DNA of 64,000 nucleotides from a virus. Lineage: Duplodnaviria > Caudoviricetes. Position 1 is the stretch's first letter. Each line of letters begins with the position of its first letter. A program made the translations under genes and the position numbers. The stretch is from the IMG/VR virus record IMGVR_UViG_2588253764_000003, one strand, 5' to 3'. Shown one piece after another: positions 8,344 through 57,548 of the stretch. Under the pieces are notes generated by a model. That model was not told the DNA's origin. It saw nothing but the letters and a program-made list of their open reading frames with translations, and did not search any database.

Positions 8344-8622
8344 TTAAGCAACTTTTCTAATGGGGCTCTCGAAATTTGGTTCATAAGTGCGCAACAAAGA
8401 ATCCATGCTATGCGGTAACTCTGAAGATCCAAAATTTGTAATCATTGCTAAAATCTTTGTAATATTGGGTAGTTCATTTTGAAGTTTTAAAACTAAAACT
8501 TTTTCTATCAATTCCATAACTTCAACTATGGCATTACAATTTTTATCTCCAATGCCTCGATGATTGGAAAATTTAAACAGTGCCATCCATAAATCACATA
8601 AGAAGTTGGTATCTATCTTCAT
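8344..8622 (-). CDS. Hypothetical phage protein
   Basis: MKIDTNFLCDLW start overlaps the antirepressor stop. Confidence 0.55.
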   Translation of the reverse strand: MKIDTNFLCDLWMALFKFSNHRGIGDKNCNAIVEVMELIEKVLVLKLQNELPNITKILAMITNFGSSELPHSMDSLLRTYEPNFESPIRKVA

Positions 8623-9332
8623 AGCACACCTCCATGGATTTGTTCTCTCAAACATGCCAATCTTCTGGATGTGATTTTTGTCGAAGGGAGTACCTTTTCT
8701 GTACCATCTGGTCTTTGAATGGTGATAGCAGGGCAATTCATGAAGCCTTTCTTGATTTTATCCTGATAAGGTAACAGAGGCGCCCCTGGAGCACGTCGAT
8801 AAACCCAGTCATGTTTACGCAAGTAATCGATTAAACCAAACAGCCTATCAGAACGTTTTAAACCTTCCAAAGCTTCTGCTTTTGGCGTGAGTGTACTCAC
8901 CTCATTTCTTAAGTCTTCTAATTGATTGATACTCTCTAAAAGAAGCTGTTTAATCGTAAGAGGATTTTCCAAAGCATTGGCAAGATCTACTTGTGGTGTT
9001 GCTACTTGTTTTAACCGTCTTTCACATTCGATAAAGTATAAACGAGCTTCTCTACCTTTCTTATTGTTCTCCACCATAGAAAGTTCTTTGGCTACACTTA
9101 AAGTGAGGTGATAGTCTTTACGATTGTGACCACCTCTTCCTTTGCTCCCCAAAATCGGGGAGCAAACAAAATCTTGATTTTCTACTAAATTATATTTGTT
9201 GATACGGTCAGTAATCCAAGTAGAGAAATCTTTTCCTATTTCCAAAAACGCATGTAGATCACGTGCATCTACTGTCTGAACAGTATCGCCATCAATACTG
9301 GTTTGATGTATGTCGATTAAATATTGTGCCAT
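8619..9332 (-). CDS. Phage antirepressor (AntA/AntB N-domain + ANT/KilAC C-domain), small internal deletion
   Basis: VDARDLHAFL..KDFSTWITDRI, AKELSMVE; C-domain lacks the TEAAK segment seen in paralogs. Confidence 0.85.
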   Translation of the reverse strand: MAQYLIDIHQTSIDGDTVQTVDARDLHAFLEIGKDFSTWITDRINKYNLVENQDFVCSPILGSKGRGGHNRKDYHLTLSVAKELSMVENNKKGREARLYFIECERRLKQVATPQVDLANALENPLTIKQLLLESINQLEDLRNEVSTLTPKAEALEGLKRSDRLFGLIDYLRKHDWVYRRAPGAPLLPYQDKIKKGFMNCPAITIQRPDGTEKVLPSTKITSRRLACLREQIHGGVL

Positions 9333-13932: not shown

Positions 13933-14481
13933 CTAAGCAGCTCTTACGACAGATTTTTCTAAAACCTGTTTTGCTTCTTCAATGAGTGTTTTATACTGTT
14001 TGCTTTCTTCTACCAATGTAAAGGCTTTAACAAGATGCATGTGGAGAGGTCCATAAATGTAAACAGCTTTTTTAGTTGGAGACATTTTATCCCAATCTTT
14101 TGGAAAATCAAAGCGTGTATCACGGTCATAATCAACAGATTGGCTTTTTAACTTTTTCTCACACTCAATAAAGTAACGACGAGCTTGTCTGCCTTTCTCA
14201 TTGCGTTCAACCATGGAAAGTTCTTTTGCCATGTCTAGAGTAAGATGATATTCTATGACTGTAACAGCTCTAGATTTTGCGCTTCCCAATTTTGGGAACC
14301 GCAAATCTTGTGTTTTTATAAAGTCTTTACCTTCTTCAAATGTATATTGATTAATACGATCTGTAATCCAAGTAGCGAAACGTTTTCCTATTTCCATGAA
14401 TGCATGTAATTCACGCGCATTGACCGTTTGCACAATTTCTTGTTCAATAATTTTTTCTGATATTTTAATGAGTGTGTTCAT
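13933..14481 (-). CDS. AntA/AntB antirepressor family protein
   Basis: VNARELHAF...FATWITDRI...LTLDMAKELSMVERNEKG.QARRYFI. Confidence 0.9.
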   Translation of the reverse strand: MNTLIKISEKIIEQEIVQTVNARELHAFMEIGKRFATWITDRINQYTFEEGKDFIKTQDLRFPKLGSAKSRAVTVIEYHLTLDMAKELSMVERNEKGRQARRYFIECEKKLKSQSVDYDRDTRFDFPKDWDKMSPTKKAVYIYGPLHMHLVKAFTLVEESKQYKTLIEEAKQVLEKSVVRAA

Positions 14482-21120: not shown

Positions 21121-21852
21121 ATGATGCGAAACTTTATTACAACATCTGAAAACAATTTTCAAAACACAACAGTTCAAACAATGTCTAGTCGTGAAATTGC
21201 AGAGTTATGCGGTAAGCAACATGCGCATATTATGCGTGATATTCGGCAAATGTTAGGAGAATTATATCCTGAAGGGGGGTAATCCAAATTTGGATCCACC
21301 TATTTAGATAAACAGAGTAAGCTCCAAAACTGCTACAACCTCCCTAAACGTGAATGCCTCATTTTAGTTTCGGGTTACAGCATGACATTACGTGCTAGGA
21401 TTATAGATCGTTGGCAAGAATTGGAAAAGCAAGCAGTAACACCACAAATCGACTATTCAAGTCCAAAGGCTATGATTGGCTTTTTGAATTACCTACAAGG
21501 TCAAATAGATCAAAAAGACACCAACATTGAAGATTTAACACCAAAAGCCATGGCTCTTGAAAGCTTACAGCGCCATGATGGGCTCTTTGGTCTTACAGAA
21601 GCTGCTAAAATACTCGAGATGCAACCAAAACAATTCATTCAATTCTTACAGCAAAAAGGGTGGATTTACAGACGCGCAGCGGGTGGAAATTTGCTACCGT
21701 ATCAAGACAAAATCCAAAAGCAACTAATGGATTGTCCAACCATCACGTTTCAAACCGCCAGTGGAATAGAAAAAGTCATTCCTTGCGCAAAAATCACAGC
21801 AAAAGGCATTGGTGTGTTGTCTCAAGAACTTAAACGACAAAGCATACATTAA
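21121..21852 (+). pseudogene. Rha + ANT/KilAC antirepressor with premature stop
   Basis: TMSSREIAELCGKQH.HI.RDI, TAA at 21280, then in-frame [19 protein letters not shown] and ANT domain. Confidence 0.8.
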
Positions 21853-21864
21853 GAGGAGGCTATC

Positions 21865-22182
21865 ATGATAAAAAAGAAATATAAACTCACTGATGAAACA
21901 ATCCAAATTGATGGAATAACGCTTTATCGCATACGCGCCTTAAAAGATTTTGATGATGTCAAAGAAGGCGACCTTGGTGGCTTTGTCGAGAGTGAATGGA
22001 ATCTTAGCCATGATGATAATTGCTGGGTTGGAGGCAATGCTTGTATTTATCAAAATGCATATATCTCTGAAAATGCCAAGGTTTATGATGATGCCGAAGT
22101 TTATAATAACGCAAAAGTTCGTGGTAATGCCATAGTAGCCGGCGATACAGCATTTTATGGAAGTGACGCTATTTTAAGGTAG
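21865..22182 (+). CDS. YdcK-like hexapeptide-repeat protein (short)
   Basis: KKY.LTDE...RIRAL.DF.DV..GDLGG...NLSH..NCWV head plus (VYxNAx)n repeats. Confidence 0.8.
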   Translation: MIKKKYKLTDETIQIDGITLYRIRALKDFDDVKEGDLGGFVESEWNLSHDDNCWVGGNACIYQNAYISENAKVYDDAEVYNNAKVRGNAIVAGDTAFYGSDAILR

Positions 22183-22193
22183 GGGGATAAATC

Positions 22194-22763
22194 ATGGAAA
22201 AGAAATACGAACTTACTGATGAAATAAAAGAATTTTATGATGCAAAAACCGATAAAAGTAAAAAACTTTATCGCATACGTGCATTAAGAGATTTTAGAAA
22301 TATTAAAAAAGGTTACTTAGGCGGCTATATACAAAAAGAAGACAACCTATCGCATGAAGGCGATTGTTGGGTTTGGCATAAAGCTATGGTTTATGGTGAC
22401 GCTAAAATTTTCGGCAATGCACAAGTATTTGAACGCGCAAAAATTACAGGCAGGGCGCGTGTTTATGAAAATGCAAAAGTTTGCGGTGAAGCATATGTTG
22501 AATATGATGCGCAAATTTACGGCAATGCACAAATTTATGGTGAGGCTCGAGTTTTGGGCCATGTTTATGGCAATGCCCGTGTCTATGGAGATGCTTATAT
22601 AAGTGATAAAGCACACATTTCCGGAAATATGAAAATTCTAGATGGAGTATATATTTTCGATAATGTAAATATTTTTGGTAATCTTGAAATTCGTGGACGC
22701 AATTCAATCATCTGCGAAAGTGACTATTCAGCAAGCGATATAAGCTACATAAGCCGTTTCTAG
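22194..22763 (+). CDS. YdcK-like hexapeptide-repeat protein
   Basis: Same head domain and VYGNA repeats. Confidence 0.8.
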   Translation: MEKKYELTDEIKEFYDAKTDKSKKLYRIRALRDFRNIKKGYLGGYIQKEDNLSHEGDCWVWHKAMVYGDAKIFGNAQVFERAKITGRARVYENAKVCGEAYVEYDAQIYGNAQIYGEARVLGHVYGNARVYGDAYISDKAHISGNMKILDGVYIFDNVNIFGNLEIRGRNSIICESDYSASDISYISRF

Positions 22764-27661: not shown

Positions 27662-28192
27662 TTAGAAAGGATTGTAATCCTCTGTTGAAGGTTTGCGGTT
27701 ATCGCCAATCATGGCTAGTCCAGAAAGTTCAAAGTCTCCATAAACATTTACATAACCACAGACCAATACCTTGTCGTAAATTTTTGTATTTCCGTAGATA
27801 GATGCACCGCAGCAAGCTTTTGCATTTCCATAAATCTGCGCATTTTCATAAATCACTGTACCGGAAACACATGCGTTGTCGTAGATACGTGCATTATCGG
27901 AAACTTTAGCACCATTGGTAACCTGCGCATTACCAAAAACCTTGGCATTTTTACTAACTTGCGAGGCAACATCAACTATCGCATTATCACAAACTACAGC
28001 ATCATCATAAACAGCGGACAAACCACGAACCCAACAATTTCCATTATGCGAGAGGTTTCTTTCGTGCTCTACAAAACCACCTAAATCACCAGCCTTTACA
28101 TCTCCAAAATCTCTCAATGCACGAATGCGATAAGTTAACTTATTTCCGTATATCCAAGTTGTCTCATCAGTAAGTTCGTATTTTTTTTCCAT
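27662..28192 (-). CDS. YdcK-like hexapeptide-repeat protein
   Basis: Conserved head plus hexapeptide repeats. Confidence 0.8.
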   Translation of the reverse strand: MEKKYELTDETTWIYGNKLTYRIRALRDFGDVKAGDLGGFVEHERNLSHNGNCWVRGLSAVYDDAVVCDNAIVDVASQVSKNAKVFGNAQVTNGAKVSDNARIYDNACVSGTVIYENAQIYGNAKACCGASIYGNTKIYDKVLVCGYVNVYGDFELSGLAMIGDNRKPSTEDYNPF

Positions 28193-28195
28193 GGT

Positions 28196-28663
28196 TTATT
28201 GCTTCTCACGATCTAAGATCACGGTGGATCCACTAATTTTACAATCTCCAGCAATGTCTACACGACAGCGAATATATGCTTGATTATAAATTTTAGCATT
28301 TCCGTAAACGTGTACACTCCCCCCTATAACAGAATTTTCATAAATCCGTGCATAGCCATAAATTTTGGCATTATCTCTAACAGAAGAACCACCAACTTCG
28401 GCATAATCGGAAACTTGTGCATTTTCAGAAACGAGTGCATTCCCATAAATCCGCGCATCACCATAAACTTTGGCATTATCATAAACTTGTGCATTGCCAA
28501 AAATCCAACAGTCTCCCTTATGGCTTAAGTTGCTCTCTTTTTGTATAAAACCACCAAGGTCACCTTTTTTGACATATCCAAAATCTTTTAATGCACGTAT
28601 GCGGTGTAGAGTATGTCTATTAACTTCGATTGTCTCATCAGTCAGTTCGTACTTCTTTTCCAT
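28196..28663 (-). CDS. YdcK-like hexapeptide-repeat protein
   Basis: Conserved head plus hexapeptide repeats. Confidence 0.8.
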   Translation of the reverse strand: MEKKYELTDETIEVNRHTLHRIRALKDFGYVKKGDLGGFIQKESNLSHKGDCWIFGNAQVYDNAKVYGDARIYGNALVSENAQVSDYAEVGGSSVRDNAKIYGYARIYENSVIGGSVHVYGNAKIYNQAYIRCRVDIAGDCKISGSTVILDREKQ

Positions 28664-28677
28664 GGTTTATTTCCTTA

Positions 28678-29424
28678 TTAATGCATGTTTTGTCGTTTCA
28701 TTTCTTGAGACAGTACCCCCATGCCTTTTGTGGTAATTTTAGCAGCTGGTACGACTTTTTCTGTTCCTTCTGTTGTTTGAATGGTGTGTGTAGGACAATC
28801 CATAAGACCTTTTTGGATTTTATCTTGATAAGGCAACAAAGGAGCCCCGAAAGTGCGTCGATACACCCATCCTTTTTTCTGTAGGAACTGAATGAACTGT
28901 TTTGGTTGCATTTCGAGAATTTTAGCCGCTTCAGTAAGACCGAAGAGCCCATCAGAGCGTTGCAAGCTTTCCAAAGCCATTGCTTTTGGTTTTAAATATT
29001 CAATGATAGTATCTTGTTGATCTATTTGTCCTTGTAGGTAATTCAAAAAGCCCATCATAGCTTTTGGACTTGAATAGTCGATTTGTTGTGGTATTGCTGC
29101 CTGCTTTGCACGTCGCTCGCATTCGATAAAGTATAAACGAGCTTGTTTTCCTTTTTCATTACGCTCTACCATGGAAAGTTCTTTTGCCATGTCTAATGTG
29201 AGAGCATAATCTTTAGAGGGACGACCACCTTGGAGGTTTTTCCCCAAATTGGGAAAAACTATATAATCTCTGTTTTCGACAAAATCATATTTGTTAATGC
29301 GTTCCATAATCCAGTCTGCAAACTTTTTACCTACTTCTAAAAAGGCATGCAATTCACGTGCGTTGACTGTTTGAACGCTTTCTTCGTTAATGGTGTTATT
29401 TGTAATAGCAATAGGATTATCCAT
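28678..29424 (-). CDS. Phage antirepressor (AntA/AntB + ANT/KilAC)
   Basis: VNARELHAFL, LTLDMAKELSMVE; TEAAK...KITTKG. Confidence 0.9.
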   Translation of the reverse strand: MDNPIAITNNTINEESVQTVNARELHAFLEVGKKFADWIMERINKYDFVENRDYIVFPNLGKNLQGGRPSKDYALTLDMAKELSMVERNEKGKQARLYFIECERRAKQAAIPQQIDYSSPKAMMGFLNYLQGQIDQQDTIIEYLKPKAMALESLQRSDGLFGLTEAAKILEMQPKQFIQFLQKKGWVYRRTFGAPLLPYQDKIQKGLMDCPTHTIQTTEGTEKVVPAAKITTKGMGVLSQEMKRQNMH

Positions 29425-35255: not shown

Positions 35256-35771
35256 ATGAACAATTTAGTAACAATCAATAATGGTATTGCTGTCACAACT
35301 TCTTTTAAAATTGCTGAGGGAGTGGGTAATACGCATAAAACAGTTATACAGTTGGTTCGTAAAAATATTAAAGATTTTGAAGAATTTGGAAGGGTCGCAT
35401 TTGAAATGCTACCCTTTAAAACGAAGGGTGGAAAACAAAAAAGAGAAGTTGCTATTCTTAATGAATCGCAAGCAACTTTACTTATGACATATATGCGCAA
35501 TAATGACACGGTGCGTGCATTTAAAAAGGCGCTTGTCAAAGCTTTCTATGAATTAAAAAGCCAATCAACAGCTCGTGATTTATTTTCTACGGAGCATGAT
35601 TTGTTTTCTTATGAAAGTTTAAAGGCTCCTGAGGGAATTGGTAAAGTTTTGGGAATGATTGCAGCGCGTTTATCGTATGTAAATGATTTACAAAAAGAGC
35701 TTGATCATTACAAATTGGTTACAACAGAAGCCAAGCGTGTTTTAACAAACGCTGTTGCAAAAGCAGCATAA
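35256..35771 (+). CDS. rha: Rha family phage regulatory protein
   Basis: TTS..IAEG....HK.V.QL.R....DFEEFG.V.FE...LNE.QATLL.TY.RN...VR.FK..LVKAF. Confidence 0.88.
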   Translation: MNNLVTINNGIAVTTSFKIAEGVGNTHKTVIQLVRKNIKDFEEFGRVAFEMLPFKTKGGKQKREVAILNESQATLLMTYMRNNDTVRAFKKALVKAFYELKSQSTARDLFSTEHDLFSYESLKAPEGIGKVLGMIAARLSYVNDLQKELDHYKLVTTEAKRVLTNAVAKAA

Positions 35772-35851
35772 AAAAACAGCGGCGGTGCGGGGGCGCCTTC
35801 TTTAAACCTCTTATTAAAAATTTATTCAAATGTTAGATTAGGGAGCTACCT

Positions 35852-36511
35852 ATGACCACTAAAAATGTATCCAAAAAATATGAACTCACAGATGAAAGCA
35901 TAAAAGGCAATGATAAAGAACTTAAAAGGACTATAACGCTTTATCGCATACGTGCTTTAAGAGATTTTGCTGATGTCAAGGCTGGGGATCTCGGGGGCTT
36001 TATCGAAAAGGAAAAAAACTTAAGTCATGATGGCAATTGCTGGGTCTATGATGATGCCATGGTCGCTACAGATTCTGTAGTTTCTGACAATGCGCAAGTG
36101 CGCAATAATGCACGTGTTTTCAGAAGTGCAAAAGTATCTGATAATGCTGTTATTCTGGATAATGCATTGGTTTTTCATAATGCTAGGGTTTTTGAAAATG
36201 CAAAAATTTGTGATAACGCCATGGTCAATGGCACTGTTAGTGGCAATGCTGTTGTTTGTAATAATGCAAAGCTCTTTTTTATCGCTTTTGTTTCTGATAA
36301 TGCACAAATTTATGATGATGCTTGTGTGAATGGTGAGGTTTTTGGCAATGCACGTATTTATGGCAATGCAACGGTTTATAGAAAGCCTCGTACTGATGGG
36401 TGGGTTGATCATACATATGTAAACATTTATGGCAATGCCGTTATTAATGGCAATCAAAAAATTTGTGATGATACTGATGGTAGTGAACAAATTTTAGATA
36501 AAACAGCATAA
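35852..36511 (+). CDS. YdcK-like hexapeptide-repeat protein
   Basis: Conserved head plus repeats. Confidence 0.8.
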   Translation: MTTKNVSKKYELTDESIKGNDKELKRTITLYRIRALRDFADVKAGDLGGFIEKEKNLSHDGNCWVYDDAMVATDSVVSDNAQVRNNARVFRSAKVSDNAVILDNALVFHNARVFENAKICDNAMVNGTVSGNAVVCNNAKLFFIAFVSDNAQIYDDACVNGEVFGNARIYGNATVYRKPRTDGWVDHTYVNIYGNAVINGNQKICDDTDGSEQILDKTA

Positions 36512-37525: not shown

Positions 37526-39041
37526 ATTCGATATAATATCAAAAAATACAATGAAGTCAATAGCTTGTTTGTAATTATTTTATATGAATCCACTTAAGAA
37601 TCCATCTTTTTATGCATGATTCATTTGACTATTTTTTATATAAGATTGCCATGTATGAATAGATCATAAAAAGCAAATCATGATGCAAATATTATAACGC
37701 ATATAAACGTTCAAATGAAATGAAAAGCAGTTATCACTCATAACAGTTTATAAATCTTATGATACGTTTTTATCACAGCACAAATCACATTGTTTAAAAT
37801 TTAGTCGTTTAGAATTGTCGATAACACACGTTTAAAGATTATATCTTATTTTAAAGATTGGATTGTTAATCACATAAAAGAGTAAATTAACGTTCGCCAA
37901 AATTGGCGAGCGCAAAATAGAGAGTTGTTATAACAGCATCGTCATAACACCGAACATTTTAAAGATTGCATAATTGCATAAAGGATTTAAAGACACGATT
38001 GATTTTATAACCACGGTATTTTTTTACCGGGGTAGAAATAAAGGTAATGAAAATCACAATGTTATATCTTATGAAATGAAAAGCCTTTTAATGAATATAG
38101 TGCATAGCTAGTTTTGAAGAACGGAACTGTTCGCTTCCATAAAAAAATGGAGGCGCATAATGCCATAGAAGTAGAATACTATATACCTTAGACATGGTAT
38201 AAAAAACGTTTTAAAAGTTATCGTTTTAAAATATGAAACCAAATGAGATCTCCTCAAATTTGAGGGCATCTATTTTAGACAAAGATAAGCAAGTAAAATT
38301 CAAAACCGTTGTAACATCATAAGGCATAGGATTTACTTAATTTTGCTAGCCAAATAGAGCGATTAATTTGCAAAGAAGCTTTGTTTAAAATACGCTTATT
38401 ATGAAAGCCTTTCTAAATGAATGTTTAAACGTTTGAAACTAATGTTTATAATAATTTTTAAAACCTTCCATTTGATAAAAGCGGTTGTTGATTTATTTTA
38501 TGAGAGCTTGTTTTAAAAACCAGCGTTTGCAAATGTAAAAAGAACGTTTTTATAAGACATTCATTTAAGATGCATTTTCTTTTGATTGAATTGATAAAGC
38601 TACCAAACGTTTTAATATGTTTTGATTTTAGAAAATGCGTTATTTGAAATTCACTCAGCTCGATTTTGAGCTTAGTATATTGAAACGTTTTAAAAGAAGC
38701 ATTGTGATCATGGGCTTTGTTTTAAAAGCCCCCCTCACAAAGGAGGGTGTTATGATTGATACGTTTGAGATTAACAAAAAGCGTTTATAGGCTCTCTCAT
38801 TCAAAAGAGTGATTAAAGATCATACGCATCATTTACATTCCTTTTGATAAGTTTTCATATCTTGAATAGAGCGCTTGTAATATAATACGTTTTGTATATA
38901 TGAATTCATTACTCCATTTGGAATGATTCATAAGGGTAGACATTTGAAAGCCGCGTCATATCATTTGGCACGGCTTTCTTTTTGAATTCTCTCTTTTATG
39001 ATGGGTTTATAACCATCAAGAAGGCACCCCCATACCTATTT

Positions 39042-52061: not shown

Positions 52062-53228
52062 CTAAGATTGACCAGTGACATAAGCCGCCCATTTATCCAT
52101 ATAGACACGGCGCTGTTCTAGATAGTCAGTACGACGATAGGCACGCTCTACTTGTCCTCCGACCGTATGACTTAGAATAGTTTCAGCGACCTCATAGGGG
52201 GCATCGGTTGTTTCAGCAAGCCAATCGCGTAAACTAGAGCGAAAACCATGGGGGCAGGCTTCAATTTTATTTTTTCTCATGTAAAGATACATACACTTCT
52301 CAGCAAGGGGACCGCGACCTTTAGCAGAAAAAAAGAAATCATTACGAGAAAGCAAGCGCGCTTGTTTTAAAATTTCTAATGCTTCAGATGATAAAGGCAC
52401 ACGAAATTCTGTTGTAGCATCACGCTTTCCTTTCATATTTTCGGCAGGAATAGTCCAGATATCATCTTCAATCTGATCTTCACGAATATGACGTAAAGGA
52501 TTTGTGCGAACGCCTGTCAGAATAAGCAAACGCAAAGCCAATTGTGTCATAGTTATTTTTTGACAAAGTGTTTTATAAAAAGCGGGCACATCTCTCCAAT
52601 CCATTGCAGGTAAGTTTTTTATTTTATGGCGTTGTTTACCTAAGAGAGCGCGTGCTTTTTCGGTTGCCTGTAAATCAACATCCAACCCTAAGGCAGCCGC
52701 ATGTTTGAGACAAAGATGAAGACGATTAAGAGCTCTATAAGCAGTTCCAGCTTTTGTATGCCAAATAGGGGCAAGTGTATTGCGTATCTCTGTTTGGGTA
52801 ATCTCAGAAACGGGCAGACAGCCTAATTTGGGGAGAATATGAAGGCGTAATGGTAAAAACCAACTTCCATTCTTACCATCATTTTTTAATTCAGATTTCC
52901 GACTTTCAAAAGCATCTAAAGCAATGTCTTTTAAATAATGGAGATTGCTTATTGCCTCACGCTTTTGTTTCTCACGTTCTTTAATGGGGTCACGACCCTC
53001 ATGCAAAACAGAACGCCATTGATTTGCTAATTCACGGGCTTTTTTTAAAGAAACGTTTCGCAACGCACCCAATCCCATTTCGCGGCGCCGACCATGAATG
53101 GTATAACGGTAAATCCATTGAGCACCTCCATCTTTACGCTTGTGAAGTAACAAGCCGGCACCATCATTATATTTGCCAGCCCCCAATGTTGCGACAGATC
53201 TTGCATTAAGACGGTTCATAAGAGCCAT
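52062..53228 (-). CDS. int: P4-like tyrosine integrase (island 1)
   Basis: DG.GL.L...W.YRY...G.RREMGLG arm domain; TGVR, HGFRSS.RDW, LSH...VERAY. Confidence 0.93.
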   Translation of the reverse strand: MALMNRLNARSVATLGAGKYNDGAGLLLHKRKDGGAQWIYRYTIHGRRREMGLGALRNVSLKKARELANQWRSVLHEGRDPIKEREKQKREAISNLHYLKDIALDAFESRKSELKNDGKNGSWFLPLRLHILPKLGCLPVSEITQTEIRNTLAPIWHTKAGTAYRALNRLHLCLKHAAALGLDVDLQATEKARALLGKQRHKIKNLPAMDWRDVPAFYKTLCQKITMTQLALRLLILTGVRTNPLRHIREDQIEDDIWTIPAENMKGKRDATTEFRVPLSSEALEILKQARLLSRNDFFFSAKGRGPLAEKCMYLYMRKNKIEACPHGFRSSLRDWLAETTDAPYEVAETILSHTVGGQVERAYRRTDYLEQRRVYMDKWAAYVTGQS

Positions 53229-53405
53229 TTTTAAATCCTTTCTTATACAAATTTGATCCACACACTCATCCCACTTGTTATGTGCAAATGAGTGGTTTTG
53301 ATTGATTCAAGATAAACAGATTTGAAATGAGAGAATCCTACGTTATTCTGGTCTTTAATTCCATATGAATAATGCTAAATTATCATTATAAATCAATATC
53401 TTGTC

Positions 53406-53636
53406 AAAGGCAGCAAAGTTTATATTGAAGGACAACTTCAAACGCGTAAATGGCAAGATAAAAACGGTATTGACCGGTTCGTAACAGAAGTCATTTTGCC
53501 TAAGTACAAAGGCGACTTAAAGCTCTTAGATGGTAAAAATGATGATAATCAAGAGCAATCATCCCCTTATGACAGAAGCATTTACAGACCTCTTGATACA
53601 CCCCATACCGTTATGAATGATGATGTTCCTTTTTAA
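53406..53636 (+). pseudogene. ssb: ssb 3' half
   Basis: [25 protein letters not shown]...DDVPF; joins the 5' half in frame. Confidence 0.9.
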
Positions 53637-55120: not shown

Positions 55121-55234
55121 ATGACATCACAAAATACAGAACAGATTTCTCAAACAAAGAAAAAATATAAACCCCCTAAGGCAGGAATGGGGCGGGTTAA
55201 AGGTGTACCCAATAAGAATACACATTGTAAATAA
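55121..55234 (+). pseudogene. N-terminal fragment of putative terminase small subunit, interrupted
   Basis: GGAGG RBS; AGMGRVKGVPNK.T motif; similarity to the island 1 left end starts at ~55235. Confidence 0.5.
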
Positions 55235-56768
55235 AAACACAATAAAGTCAATATGTTATTTGCAATTATTTTATATGAATCCACTTAAGAATCCACACTT
55301 TTATGCATGATTCATTTGACCATTTTTTATATAAGATTGCCATGTATGAATAGACCATAAAAAGCAAATCATGATGTAAATATTATAACGCATGTAAACG
55401 TTCAAATGAAATGAAAAGCAGTTATCACTCATAACAGTTTATAAATTTTATGATACGTTTTTATCACAGCACAAATCGCATTGTTTAAAATTTAATCGTT
55501 TGGAATTATCGATAACATACGTTTTAAAGATTACTTCTTATTTTAAAGATTGGATTGTTAATCGCATAAAATAACAAATTAACGTTCGCCAAAATTGGCG
55601 AGCGCAAAATCTAAAGAGTGTTATAGCAATATTAGATCATTCTATAAGAGGGTAATCGTTTGAAACTGCTATAAGGTAAATTGTATCAAAAGATAGGCAT
55701 TTATAGAAAATAGAGATCATATAATTTTTCCCAAAATTGGGAAAAACCTTTAAAATGGCATTAAAGAAATTAACTGTTTGAAGCATTCATAAGCTTATAG
55801 GATTAATTCATAAAGATTGCACAAAGGATTTAAAGACAAGATTGATTTTATAACCACGGTATTTTTTTACCGCGGTAGGAAATAAACAGATAATGAAATT
55901 CAAAACGTTATATCTTATGAAATCAAAAGCCTTTTAATGAATATAGTGCAAGCAAGTGAGCAAAAAACGTTTTAAAAGTTATCGTTTTAAAATATGAAAC
56001 CAAATGAGATCTCCTCAAATTTGAGGGCATCTATTTTAGACAAAGATAAGCAAGTAAAATTCAAAACCGTTGTAACATCATAAGGCATAGGATTTACTTA
56101 ATTTTGCTAGCCAAATAGAGCAATTAATTTGCAAAGAAGCTTTGTTTAAAATACGCTTATTATGAAAGCCTTTCTAAATGAATGTTTAAACGTTTGAAAC
56201 GGATGTTTATAATAATTTTTAAAACCTTCCATTTGATAAAAGCAGTTGTTTATTGTCTTATGAGAGCTTGTTTTGAAAAATTAACGCTCGTAAATGTAAA
56301 AAGAACGTTTTTAAAAAAGATATTAGTCTAATAGGCATTTTCTTTTGATTGAATTGATAAAGCTACCAAACGTTTTAATATGTTTTGATTTTAGAAAATG
56401 CGTTATTTGAAATTCACTCAACTCAATTTTGAGCTTAGTGTTTTAAAATGTTTTAAAGAAGCATCTTGATTATGGGCTTTGTTTTAAATGCATCTCTTTA
56501 AGATAAAGACATTCTCATTCAAAAGAGTGATTAAAGATCATATGCATAATTTACGTTCCTTTTGATAAGTTTTCATATTTTTAATAGAGCACTTGAAATA
56601 TGATACATTTTTTATATATGCATTCATTACTCCATTGTAGGTGGTTATTTTTATCATAAGAATCATTCTTTGAAAGCCGCGTCATATCATTTGGCACGGC
56701 TTTCTTTTATGAATTCTCTCTTTTATGATACGTTTATAGCTATCAAGAAGGCGCTCCCATACCTATTT

Positions 56769-57548
56769 TTATTCTGTTTTATCAATAATCTTAACGACAT
56801 TATCGCTTTGATAAACCTCACAATTTTTGGGAACTAACTTTGCTTTGCTTTTTGTATTGATTGTTGCATTGCCATAAGCACGCCCCCAGATCGTTGCACA
56901 ATGTAAGATTTTTGCATTGCCATAGACAGAGCCATAAACCTCACAAGAGCCCCCCACGCGCGCATTGCCATAGACCTTGCCATAAATCTTTGCACGACCA
57001 TTAATCACAGCATAATTATAAATTTTCGCATGGCTATAAATACAAGCAGAGCCACAAACCCTAGCATGACCATAGACGCGTGCATAACTAAAAACCGTAG
57101 CATCATAAGAAACATGGGCATGGTCATAAATATGAGCATCAGCAAGAACGCGGGCAGCACCACTCACATGAGCATTGCCATAAACATTGCCATACACATG
57201 AGCACTCCCATAAACACAAGCCTGATCATAAATCTTTGCATATTGAGAGATAAAAGCCTTGCTATAGACCTCAGCATTGCCATAGACGAGACCACAGACT
57301 TGAGAATAATGCCGTATTTTTGCATCATCATAAACACGGGCATGACCATAGACACAAGCCTCATCATAGACCCAGCAATTGCCATCATGGGATAGGTTGA
57401 CTTCCTTTTCGATAAAACCGCCTAAAGCACCCGCTTTTATATCATCAAAATCTCTTAAAGCCCGAATGCGATAAAGGCTTGTGATATTTCGCGTAAGAGC
57501 ATGTTTGATTTTTTTGATTTCACTGGTTAATTCGTATTTTTTGCACAT
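56769..57548 (-). CDS. YdcK-like hexapeptide-repeat protein (array 2, gene 4)
   Basis: Near-identical to 39042..39821. Confidence 0.85.
   Translation of the reverse strand: MCKKYELTSEIKKIKHALTRNITSLYRIRALRDFDDIKAGALGGFIEKEVNLSHDGNCWVYDEACVYGHARVYDDAKIRHYSQVCGLVYGNAEVYSKAFISQYAKIYDQACVYGSAHVYGNVYGNAHVSGAARVLADAHIYDHAHVSYDATVFSYARVYGHARVCGSACIYSHAKIYNYAVINGRAKIYGKVYGNARVGGSCEVYGSVYGNAKILHCATIWGRAYGNATINTKSKAKLVPKNCEVYQSDNVVKIIDKTE

What the first reader, a model, noticed from the sequence alone, without database searches (positions are those of the whole stretch)
55580..56440. Island 2 has a different snippet set, including a near-copy of the host prophage B antirepressor palindrome
Seen: four snippets are shared with island 1 (55583, 55853, 56008, 56416). 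The RFHKKMEA snippet is absent, and a new one is present at ~55700-55760. It reads TTT ATA GAA AAT AGA GAT CAT ATA ATT TTT CCC AAA ATT GGG AAA AAC CTT TAA AAT GGC and matches the prophage B ant segment FVENRDYIVFPNLGKNLQGG (~29225-29284, minus strand) at 47/60 nt by hand count, with the TTTTTCCC/GGGAAAAA arms intact. Inference: snippets are gained and lost as modules and can match a co-resident helper phage.
Basis: partly seen in the sequence, partly recalled or inferred. Interest (0 to 1): 0.85.

Follow-up and report, generated by a model that had tools for sequence, protein, structure and literature searches.

The report
Relic antirepressor cassettes in satellite arm
This stretch is part of a row of short, dead fragments of phage antirepressor genes at one end of a mobile island; island 2 carries a different set of fragments from island 1, and the fragment resembling the neighbouring phage's gene is an old, widely shared relic, not a fresh copy.

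Summary
Island 2's ORF-free arm shares four palindromes with island 1, lacks the RFHKKMEA piece, and has a 182-bp block (55634-55815). The core of that block matches the prophage antB gene at 47 of 60 bases, with identical arms.

The arm is a head-to-tail row of sense-oriented, degenerate fragments of AntA-domain antirepressor genes. Each fragment comes from a different allele class and is centred on a DNA dyad. Intact AntA genes, and Rha genes, carry this dyad in the codons for a beta-hairpin tip.

Whole cassettes are present or absent between copies, so "modules" is right. "Matches the co-resident helper" is only weakly supported:
- The cassette is 91-98% identical in nine other Bartonella-genus genomes (84% in a tenth).
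- Its best match is an allele in another genome.
- Its core is inverted relative to the genes.
- Seven of ten cassette-bearing genomes show no close allele.

The arm diverges at about the rate of third codon positions, and the dyad is no better kept than its flanks. The most likely reading is a relic array reshaped by deletion and template switching.

This scan has noted the AntA coding dyad and orphan arrays before on other DNA. My searches found no paper describing it.

The parts
55233..55515 (+). Island-end part of island 2's arm, next to the left attachment junction. It is conserved among all five arms and shows no AntA similarity.
   Evidence: about 92% identity between arms; no AntA hit before tract position 287.
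55516..55630 (+). Cassette 1: a degenerate AntA gene fragment (AntA nt about 106-258) holding dyad S1 at 55583-55604.
   Evidence: 80% over 60 nt (E 3.8e-8) and 82% over 66 nt (E 2.6e-10) to AntA alleles. One search gives the dyad coordinates.
55634..55815 (+). 182-bp block present in island 2 (and in sibling arms T4 and T5) and replaced by about 38 nt in island 1. It holds one whole cassette.
55700..55759 (+). The ant-like snippet. It is a sense-oriented fragment of a VFPN(L/F)GKN-class AntA gene, closed by a TAA five codons after the dyad.
   Evidence: 47 of 60 to 29224-29283 minus. (86% over 50 to L097, 84% to antB). (AntA HMM i-E 4.4e-4). (longest open frame 29 aa in most homologous copies).
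55725..55746 (.). Dyad TTTTTCCCAA-AA-TTGGGAAAAA. Its arms are identical to those of antB, and its spacer is in the opposite orientation.
   Evidence: ssDNA fold -7.6 kcal/mol, z -2.7.
55811..55892 (+). Cassette with dyad S2 (55853-55876), from the VTAVNFY(R/W)GGK allele class.
   Evidence: 71% over 90 nt to L101, E 2.4e-4.
55957..55958 (.). Junction where the RFHKKMEA cassette of island 1 (38112-38200) is missing.
   Evidence: the island-1 cassette at 38130-38205 is 84% over 77 nt to L102, E 2.2e-17.
56003..56054 (+). Cassette with dyad S4 (56013-56026).
   Evidence: 83% over 52 nt to the AntA-like gene of L120, E 1.6e-6.
56416..56439 (+). S5, an imperfect palindrome shared with island 1. I found no AntA similarity for it, and its pairing is weaker than in island 1.
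   Evidence: no hit; z -0.4.
56511..56512 (.). Junction where a 44-bp block of island 1 is missing. In island 1 that block carries a Shine-Dalgarno-like AAGGAGGG and a 12-codon ORF at 38752-38790.
56673..56704 (+). Terminator-like hairpin with a T-rich tail that closes the arm, just before the convergent YdcK-type gene at 56769-57548 (-).
   Evidence: The consensus scan did not list it.
28678..29424 (-). The prophage antB gene (AntA plus KilAC domains), with its in-frame dyad at 29236-29259.
   Evidence: PF08346 1.8e-29, PF03374 2.8e-24.
37540..39041 (+). Island 1's homologous arm, used here as the comparator.

Best explanation
The finding lies in the middle of a roughly 1.5-kb ORF-free arm. 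This arm forms the integrase-distal end of each of five sibling integrative islands embedded in one prophage record, and it recurs many times in Bartonella genomes.

Shown: the central part of the arm is a head-to-tail row of promoterless, degenerate fragments of AntA-domain antirepressor genes.
- All fragments are in sense orientation on the + strand.
- Detectable similarity spans about 30-90 nt per fragment.
- Each fragment comes from a different allele class.
- Each is centred on the DNA dyad that intact AntA genes carry in the codons for the tip of a beta-hairpin.
- Island 2 differs from island 1 by whole-cassette differences: one cassette more (the ant-like one), one less (RFHKKMEA), and one 44-bp block less.

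Inferred: cassettes are lost, and perhaps duplicated or replaced, by deletion and unequal recombination between neighbouring cassettes. The dyads stay roughly symmetric, and their spacers flip, through replication template switching between the arms rather than through selection. On this reading the array is a slowly decaying relic of antirepressor genes, carried along with the island. Its resemblance to antB reflects a shared allele class and physical linkage to the helper prophage, not recent capture.
For: The arm is a repeated, mobile unit.
- There are five copies in the 127-kb record.
- The genomes G001-G003 and G005 each give 22-42 matching pieces, and G004 gives 5.

Its modules are AntA gene fragments in sense orientation, spaced about 117-160 nt apart, each best matched by a different allele class:
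- S1: 82-88%.
- Ant-like cassette: 86% over 50 nt.
- S2: 71-86%.
- T4/T5 variant at the S2 slot: 91% over 32 nt.
- RFHKKMEA: 84% over 77-86 nt, E 2e-17 to 2e-19.
- S4: 83% over 52 nt.

The cassettes are dead.
- There is a stop five codons after the dyad.
- The longest open frame across the homologous cassette is 21-33 aa in 13 of 13 copies.
- Only the ant-like cassette is detectable with a protein HMM.

The dyad is a property of the gene family, not of this arm.
- It is the strongest palindrome of the AntA domain in 55 of 67 distinct genes (equal in 7, weaker in 5).
- 78 of 97 distinct loop segments have 8 or more pairs, and the dyad centre falls in all three codon phases (35, 15 and 28).
- Palindrome density is 2.65 per kb inside AntA domains and 0.45 per kb in their flanks.
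- 10 of 15 distinct Rha genes have a dyad at the equivalent loop.
- In the AlphaFold model (pLDDT 87) the dyad region encodes the tip of a beta-hairpin.

The arm evolves at about the neutral rate. Between islands 1 and 2 its blocks are 89-93.5% identical. The adjacent genes are 97.4-97.6% identical overall and 93.5-94.3% at third codon positions.

The dyad is not protected inside the cassette.
- Among 16 distinct full copies, 5 of 22 core columns vary against 21 of 147 flank columns (p 0.34). Several copies have broken pairing.
- S5 has lost a pair in island 2.

There are template-switch hallmarks.
- The cassette spacer is [AC]AAATT in 13 of 13 cassettes. It is [ACG]ATTT[TGC] in 13 of 13 genes of this dyad type.
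- The T4/T5 core is the exact reverse complement of the antB core (23 of 23) while the flanks align forward.
- A paired double change occurs within a 96.7%-identical block (T2 against L007).
- Arm homogenisation and spacer inversion are what template switching does, according to the abstracts of PMC8604942 and PMC8794818.

Orphan arrays and fragments of the same kind occur elsewhere.
- Four palindromes lie upstream of an intact AntA gene in a 62%-GC record, L010.
- An isolated fragment lies at G000:C1:84940-85022.
- An AntA pseudogene in L157 is truncated at the dyad.
Against: - One cassette per allele class in a fixed order is not what random decay of a few genes predicts. It calls for many separate ant genes or acquisitions.
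- At two slots the loop alone is replaced while the flanks stay homologous. These are S2 against the T4/T5 variant, and S1 against the L003 variant. Plain decay does not explain this.
- Within local alignments the dyads are closer to their source alleles than the flanks are: 183 of 204 against 177 of 217 (p 0.019). The modules are not independent and the alignments are local.
- The same three core variants occur in cassettes and, as reverse complements, in genes. In three of the four records or genomes holding both (G000, G002, G063) a cassette core is the exact reverse complement of a co-resident gene core. In the fourth (G079) it is one base off.
- Cassette presence is associated with a close allele (p 0.012).
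- A terminator-like hairpin closes the arm on the + strand, and a 153-nt contig of an RNA library covers 56123-56275. Transcription is therefore not excluded.
Confidence: 0.6

Rival explanations
1. Working array of binding sites. The dyad inside each AntA or Rha gene would be the cis site of a dimeric DNA-binding protein, most simply the gene's own N-domain. The satellite arm would then hold one site per allele class, to soak up or sense the antirepressors of whichever helper or superinfecting phage is present.
For: - The dyad is kept across the gene family in all three codon phases. Its arm mismatches show no wobble bias: 10 T.G/G.T, 16 A.C/C.A and 31 other, of 57. This fits double-stranded DNA symmetry better than an RNA stem.
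- The N-domain model has two helices followed by a beta-hairpin.
- The arm has one cassette per class in a fixed order, always at the same island end.
- The arms of the ant-like cassette are identical to those of antB.
I did not test that here.
Against: - The arm diverges at about the third-codon-position rate.
- Dyad columns are no better conserved than flank columns, and some copies are broken.
- Sibling arms inside one prophage differ in their cassette sets.
- Many genomic copies lack S1 and the ant-like cassette.
- 7 of 10 cassette-bearing genomes have no close allele.
- There is no second copy of a gene's own dyad within 1.5 kb in 78 loci, and none elsewhere in this record.
- No solved structure supports DNA binding.
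Confidence: 0.2
2. Silent-cassette or dyad-exchange library. The fragments would serve as donors or recipients of short-patch conversion with the variable loop of helper ant genes, possibly through the palindromic core, which can pair in either orientation.
For: - The fragments are partial, promoterless, same-orientation copies that differ in the variable loop.
- Loop-only replacement occurs at two slots.
- Three core variants are shared, in reverse complement, between cassettes and genes.
- In L010 the array lies directly upstream of an intact ant gene.
Against: - Flank identity to any intact allele is only 71-88%, which is low for homologous conversion.
- Stops and frameshifts lie close to the loops.
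- The islands carry no intact ant gene, and antB is 26 kb away.
- Shared variants may come from linkage or from parallel changes at homopolymer borders.
Confidence: 0.08
3. Structured RNA locus. The arm would be transcribed on the + strand up to its terminator, and the hairpins would act as RNA, for example by pairing with the same palindrome in ant mRNA.
For: - A + strand terminator-like hairpin closes the arm.
- There is a promoter-like site at 56185-56213, matching 10 of 12 positions.
- One RNA-library contig covers 56123-56275.
- T.G oppositions on the + strand occur in S1, S3 and S4.
Against: - There is no Rfam match.
- Promoter-like sites are not above shuffles: 12 against 12.7.
- The mismatch spectrum in genes shows no wobble bias.
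- S2, S4 and S5 fold no better than shuffles.
- The RNA contig may be DNA carry-over and lies between the dyads.
Confidence: 0.04
4. Record of past attachment sites. An ancestral integrase would have used ant dyads as its core site, and imprecise excisions would have stacked ant pieces at the island end.
For: - The array sits at the island end.
- The dyads have the layout of a simple recombinase core, with inverted arms and a 6-nt spacer.
- S1 looks like a chimera. Its left arm resembles the LT(F/L)AKIGER class and its right arm and flank resemble the RSPNLASAKSR class.
Against: - The present attachment core of island 1 lies in ssb and is not a dyad of this type.
- The RFHKKMEA cassette matches one allele on both sides of its dyad.
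- The array begins about 290 nt inside the island end.
Confidence: 0.04

Closest known systems
Orphan or relic arrays of antirepressor coding palindromes noted earlier by this scan on other DNA (e1-6077001, e1-6077009, e1-3284953), and the array in L010
   Same: Free-standing copies of the AntA in-gene dyad, each with a few codons of context, in one orientation and in non-coding DNA.
   Different: Here the array is not beside an intact ant gene. It forms a fixed arm of an integrative satellite, is multi-copy across a genus, and holds one cassette per allele class.
Quasi-palindrome template-switch mutation (PMC8604942, PMC8794818, PMC7202029; abstracts seen in the listing)
   Same: Arm homogenisation through paired changes, and spacer inversion.
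   Different: That mechanism explains how symmetry is kept. It does not explain why nearly all AntA genes hold a dyad at one codon position.
Silent-cassette gene conversion (Neisseria pilE/pilS, Borrelia vlsE/vls; named from my own knowledge)
   Same: Tandem, promoterless, partial copies that differ in a variable segment.
   Different: The flanks are only 71-88% like any intact allele, the cassettes carry stops, there is no adjacent expression locus, and no conversion is shown.
cis sites embedded in the gene of their binding protein (lambda ori iterons in gene O, parS in parB; named from my own knowledge and from note e1-319718)
   Same: A dyad inside a coding sequence, kept whatever the reading frame.
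   Different: There is a single site per gene, the binding partner is unknown, and no binding has been tested.
Helper-embedded PICIs (PMC10111431; abstract and a term search of the text)
   Same: Islands with a tyrosine integrase inserted inside genes of a prophage. Here ssb is split at 37530 and 53430.
   Different: The term search found 0 occurrences of Bartonella, palindrom or noncoding in that paper. I could not see its supplements.

Membership tests
AntA/AntB antirepressor gene (Pfam PF08346), for the snippet at 55700-55759 | Significant similarity to the AntA-domain coding sequence. | tested here: met
   84-86% over 50 nt, E 1e-9 to 2.6e-10. An HMM built from 157 AntA translations gives i-E 4.4e-4.
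AntA/AntB antirepressor gene (Pfam PF08346), for the snippet at 55700-55759 | An intact open reading frame covering the domain. | tested here: not met
   There is a TAA five codons after the dyad. The longest open frame is 21-33 aa in 13 of 13 homologous cassettes. It is a gene fragment, not a gene.
AntA coding dyad (in-gene palindrome of the family) | Inverted arms of 8 or more pairs around an A/T-rich spacer of 6 nt or less, at the loop between D[YF][IV] and (K/E)(D/E)Y. | tested here: met
   The cassette has 10 pairs at 55725-55746 at the homologous position. In genes, 78 of 97 distinct loops have such a dyad.
Silent-cassette gene-conversion system | Near-identical conserved flanks shared with an expressed copy. 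| tested here: not met
   The best flank identities are 71-88%.
Silent-cassette gene-conversion system | Observed transfer of cassette sequence into the expressed gene. | tested here: inconclusive
   Core variants are shared in reverse complement between cassettes and genes, but linkage could explain this.
CRISPR array or integron cassette array | Identical direct repeats, or attC sites with an IntI integrase. | tested here: not met
   There are no conserved repeats between the units beyond AntA framework codons. The island integrase is an Arm-DNA-bind_3 / Phage_integrase type.
Rho-independent terminator (for the dyads) | A G+C-rich stem followed by a T run. | tested here: not met
   The ant-like dyad is followed by CCTTTAAAAT and was not listed by the scan. 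S1 (minus strand) and S4 were listed but lack a clean T run.
Known RNA families (Rfam 15) | A match at E of 1 or less. | tested here: not met
   There are 0 matches in 55200-56800. The island-1 arm gives only two weak matches, both outside it.
Helper-embedded satellite (HE-PICI-like), for the island that carries the arm | Integration inside a prophage gene, with a flanking direct repeat and an integrase at one end. | tested here: met
   The ssb gene is split at about 37530 and resumes at about 53430, with a repeated core. The integrase is at 52062-53261 (-). The record holds four integrases about 85% alike.

The most novel reading that the evidence does not exclude
The arm is a working, multi-allele array of DNA sites for the winged-helix-like N-domains of helper Ant and Rha proteins. 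Each antirepressor gene would carry its own binding dyad inside its coding sequence. The satellite would keep one dyad per specificity class to titrate or sense the antirepressors of whatever helper or superinfecting phage it meets. Cassette turnover would then be an arms race.
Probability: 0.17. Interest if true: 0.85.

Novelty: new variant of a known kind. Interest (0 to 1): 0.45.

Why it matters
If the relic reading is right, the finding is an ordinary cassette polymorphism. It still documents two things of wider use.

First, AntA and Rha antirepressor genes almost always carry a DNA dyad at one loop, whatever the reading frame. My searches found no paper describing this element, and its function is open.

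Second, fragments carrying that dyad outlive their genes and pile up in arrays, here as a fixed arm of helper-embedded satellites that is multi-copy in Bartonella. This gives a natural series of copies in which to separate mutational upkeep of palindromes (template switching) from selection.

If instead the arm binds helper antirepressors, it would be a new way for a satellite to read or blunt helper induction.

Tried and rejected
RNA evidence.
- Rfam gave nothing in either arm.
- One search for sequencing runs found no RNA run of this strain.
- When laid, a metatranscriptome run (X20) gave a single 153-nt contig over 56123-56275 and nothing else. The tool warns that DNA can be present in such a library, so I draw nothing from it. 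I also draw nothing from the uncovered parts.

Attachment-site idea. The core repeat of island 1 in ssb is not an ant-type dyad, so the present integrase does not use the dyads.

Operator idea.
- Half-sites of the three ant dyads and of the arm dyads are not clustered anywhere else in the 127-kb record.
- None of the 88 palindromes outside AntA domains in 78 loci repeats the neighbouring gene's own dyad.

RNA-stem idea. The mismatch spectrum shows no wobble bias.

"Studded with palindromes beyond chance". Counts of perfect palindromes with arms of 6 or more are within the shuffle range in all five arms. Only the G+C-containing dyads stand out. For 9 or more pairs with 3 or more G/C pairs, the whole record has 42 against 9-23 in ten shuffles.

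Searches that found little or nothing.
- Protein-level detection of cassettes was weak except for the ant-like one.
- The phage record collection gave no match to island 1's arm.
- There was no PDB sequence match to antB and no fold match at E of 0.001 or better. The best was a DNA-binding protein at E 0.2.
- I found no paper on the dyad. One search (AntA, antirepressor, palindrome) listed 8 papers, none on it by title or abstract. One search (Bartonella, prophage, antirepressor) listed 8 papers, none relevant. I saw listings only.
- The supplements of PMC10111431 were not seen and may list related islands.

Breakpoints. The exact ends of the 182-bp block could not be fixed, because alternative alignments are equally good.
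Full report
**Context.** The window is the first 64 kb of a 127,254-bp viral record.
- It holds prophage genes, including three AntA-domain antirepressor genes: 8619-9332, 13933-14481 and 28678-29424, the last being "antB".
- It also holds a Rha gene at 35256-35771 and integrative islands.
- Island 1 splits the phage ssb gene. The N-terminal part ends near 37530 and the rest resumes near 53430 after a short repeated core. A tyrosine integrase lies at 52062-53261 (-).
- From the integrase-distal end, each island has a roughly 1.5-kb ORF-free arm, then a convergent array of YdcK-type beta-solenoid genes, and further on a Type ISP restriction enzyme.
- The arm occurs five times in the record: T1 37540-39041, T2 55230-56770, T3 74012-75534, T4 115084-116723 (minus) and T5 117919-119525.
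- Exact-pattern scans found the arm in records titled as several Bartonella species and in another viral record.
- Four of five related genomes give 22-42 matching pieces each, and G004 gives 5.

**Checking the observation.** A MAFFT alignment of the five arms, a palindrome scan and exact look-ups confirm every element.
- Four palindromes are shared with island 1. S1 (55583-55604) and S4 (56013-56026) are identical. S2 (55853-55876) differs at one base and S5 (56416-56439) at two.
- The RFHKKMEA piece of island 1 (38112-38200) is missing at 55957/55958.
- A 44-bp block of island 1 is also missing, at 56511/56512.
- A block at 55634-55815 is present in T2, T4 and T5 but not in T1 or T3.
- Its core, 55700-55759, matches the minus strand of 29224-29283 at 47 of 60 bases.
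- The background over the whole record is 16.9 with SD 3.7. Only the sibling arms and antB reach 40 or more.
- blastn gives 84% over 50 nt.
- Against a stronger claim, the number of perfect short palindromes in the arms is within the range of shuffles, and S2, S4 and S5 fold no better than shuffled sequence.

**What the snippets are.** With 164 AntA stretches gathered from viral contigs and five related genomes, sensitive blastn shows that the arm's modules are sense-oriented fragments of AntA genes. They cover roughly gene positions 106-270 and sit about 117-160 nt apart. Each is best matched by a different allele class (classes read).
- Cassette 1 (55516-55630): 80% over 60 nt and 82% over 66 nt.
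- The ant-like cassette: 86% over 50 nt to L097, 84% to antB.
- S2: 71% over 90 nt to the VTAVNFY(R/W)GGK class.
- The variant at the same slot in T4 and T5: 91% over 32 nt to the ITLSKNLENGGK class.
- RFHKKMEA: 84% over 77-86 nt to the IRFHKKMEANNA class, E 2e-17 to 2e-19.
- S4: 83% over 52 nt to the gene of L120.
- The recurrent short motifs between dyads read as the framework codons of the domain. This is my reading of the sequence.
- S5 and the palindromes after it gave no AntA hit.
- The cassettes are dead. A stop follows the ant-like dyad, open frames are 21-33 aa, and a protein HMM detects only this cassette.

**The dyad belongs to the gene family.**
- In 67 distinct AntA domain sequences from 78 viral loci, the strongest palindrome lies in the variable loop in 55. 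It is equal to the best elsewhere in 7 and weaker in 5.
- Of 97 distinct loop segments, 78 have 8 or more pairs.
- The dyad centre falls in all three codon phases (35, 15, 28). The same DNA symmetry is therefore translated into different peptides, such as SPILGS and FPNFGE.
- Palindromes are six times denser inside AntA domains than in their flanks.
- Ten of 15 distinct Rha genes have a dyad at the equivalent loop.
- An AlphaFold model (38-sequence alignment, pLDDT 87) places the dyad-encoded residues at the tip of a beta-hairpin that follows two helices. This tip is the only low-confidence internal segment.
- No solved structure resembles the domain.
- Arm mismatches show no wobble bias: 10 T.G/G.T, 16 A.C/C.A and 31 other, of 57. 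This leans towards symmetry of double-stranded DNA rather than an RNA stem.
- This scan has noted the same dyad and orphan arrays on other DNA. My literature searches found no description of it.

**Relic or working array?**

Several tests point to a relic.
- Between islands 1 and 2 the arm's blocks are 89-93.5% identical. The adjacent genes are 97.4-97.6% identical overall and 93.5-94.3% at third codon positions. The arm therefore changes at about the neutral rate.
- Among 26 full copies of the ant-like cassette (16 distinct), 5 of 22 dyad columns vary against 21 of 147 flank columns (p 0.34). Several copies have broken pairing.
- The five sibling arms inside one prophage carry different cassette sets.
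- Many genomic copies lack cassette 1 and the ant-like cassette altogether.

The paired changes are better explained by mutation than by selection.
- The cassette spacer is inverted relative to genes of the same dyad type in 13 of 13 cassettes against 13 of 13 genes.
- The T4/T5 core equals the reverse complement of the antB core at 23 of 23 positions, while the flanks align forward.
- These are the products of template switching between inverted repeats, as described in abstracts seen (PMC8604942, PMC8794818).
- That idea came to me from earlier notes of this scan (e1-3284953, e1-5567855).

Some points fit a plain relic less well.
- There is one cassette per allele class in a fixed order.
- Loop-only replacement occurs at two slots.
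- Identity to source alleles is higher inside dyads than outside: 183 of 204 against 177 of 217, p 0.019, with modules not independent.
- Three core variants are shared in reverse complement by cassettes and genes.

**The helper-match claim.**
- In a sample of 81 genomes of the genus, most of the ant-like cassette is present in 10: G001, G002, G005, G020, G021, G029, G052, G059, G063 and G079. G050 is doubtful at 79%.
- A close allele (84% or more over the 50-nt core) is present in 5: G002, G050, G063, G070 and G079.
- Three genomes have both. This gives Fisher p 0.012 with the close set and p 0.20 with a broader set of 13 allele-bearing genomes.
- Seven of ten cassette-bearing genomes show no close allele. 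G001 has the cassette, but none of its 15 AntA matches is of this class.
- The islands lie inside the prophage that carries the allele, so linkage and shared descent are enough to produce the association.
- Draft assemblies may hide alleles.
Modules are confirmed. A tuned match to the helper is not shown.

**How the modules change.**
- The ends of the 182-bp block fall between dyads. The right end lies at a framework motif that also starts the next cassette. The left end is ambiguous.
- Contigs of DNA runs X1 and X2 show 13 further skip joints across this stretch.
- I infer deletion or unequal recombination between neighbouring cassettes. This is not shown.

**Verdict.** Island 2's arm carries a different subset of dead antirepressor-gene cassettes from island 1. 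The antB-like one is an old, widely shared relic of the same allele class with an inverted core. The wider element, a frame-independent dyad in AntA and Rha genes, remains unexplained and is the part worth testing.

Noticed in passing
L010:1360-1800 (minus strand): A 62%-GC record titled as a betaproteobacterium holds four A/T-rich AntA-type palindromes upstream of an intact AntA gene (537-1358, minus). One shares an exact 24-mer with arm dyad S1. A 99-aa ORF there is a chimera of AntA pieces, and the gene's 5' end is duplicated.
   Followed up: partly
G000:C1:84940-85022 (outside the window): An isolated AntA fragment of about 80 nt ends just after a perfect 13-bp-arm dyad. It lies in a 1-kb intergenic gap between an 805-aa gene and a 595-aa gene.
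   Followed up: partly
window 38740-38790: Island 1's arm has a strong Shine-Dalgarno-like AAGGAGGG followed by a 12-codon ORF (MIDTFEINKKRL). The block is present in T1, T3 and T4 and absent from T2 and T5.
   Followed up: no
L027:345-on, and alleles in G001, G003 and G005: Some intact AntA genes carry two tandem copies of the loop with two different dyads in one reading frame.
   Followed up: no
L157 (G001:C1:806664-807410): An AntA pseudogene is truncated right at the position of the dyad.
   Followed up: no
window 56123-56275: A single 153-nt contig of a metatranscriptome library (depth 88.7, 3 differences) covers this conserved stretch between dyads. The stretch holds a promoter-like site at 56185-56213. 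It is unclear whether this is RNA or DNA carry-over.
   Followed up: partly
window 35390-35416, and L188-L209: Rha genes carry their own dyad with covarying arms at the equivalent loop, in 10 of 15 distinct genes.
   Followed up: partly
window 27662-29424, 21124-22763 and 35256-36511: Ant or rha genes are each followed by one or two YdcK-type beta-solenoid genes. The islands keep only the solenoid arrays.
   Followed up: no
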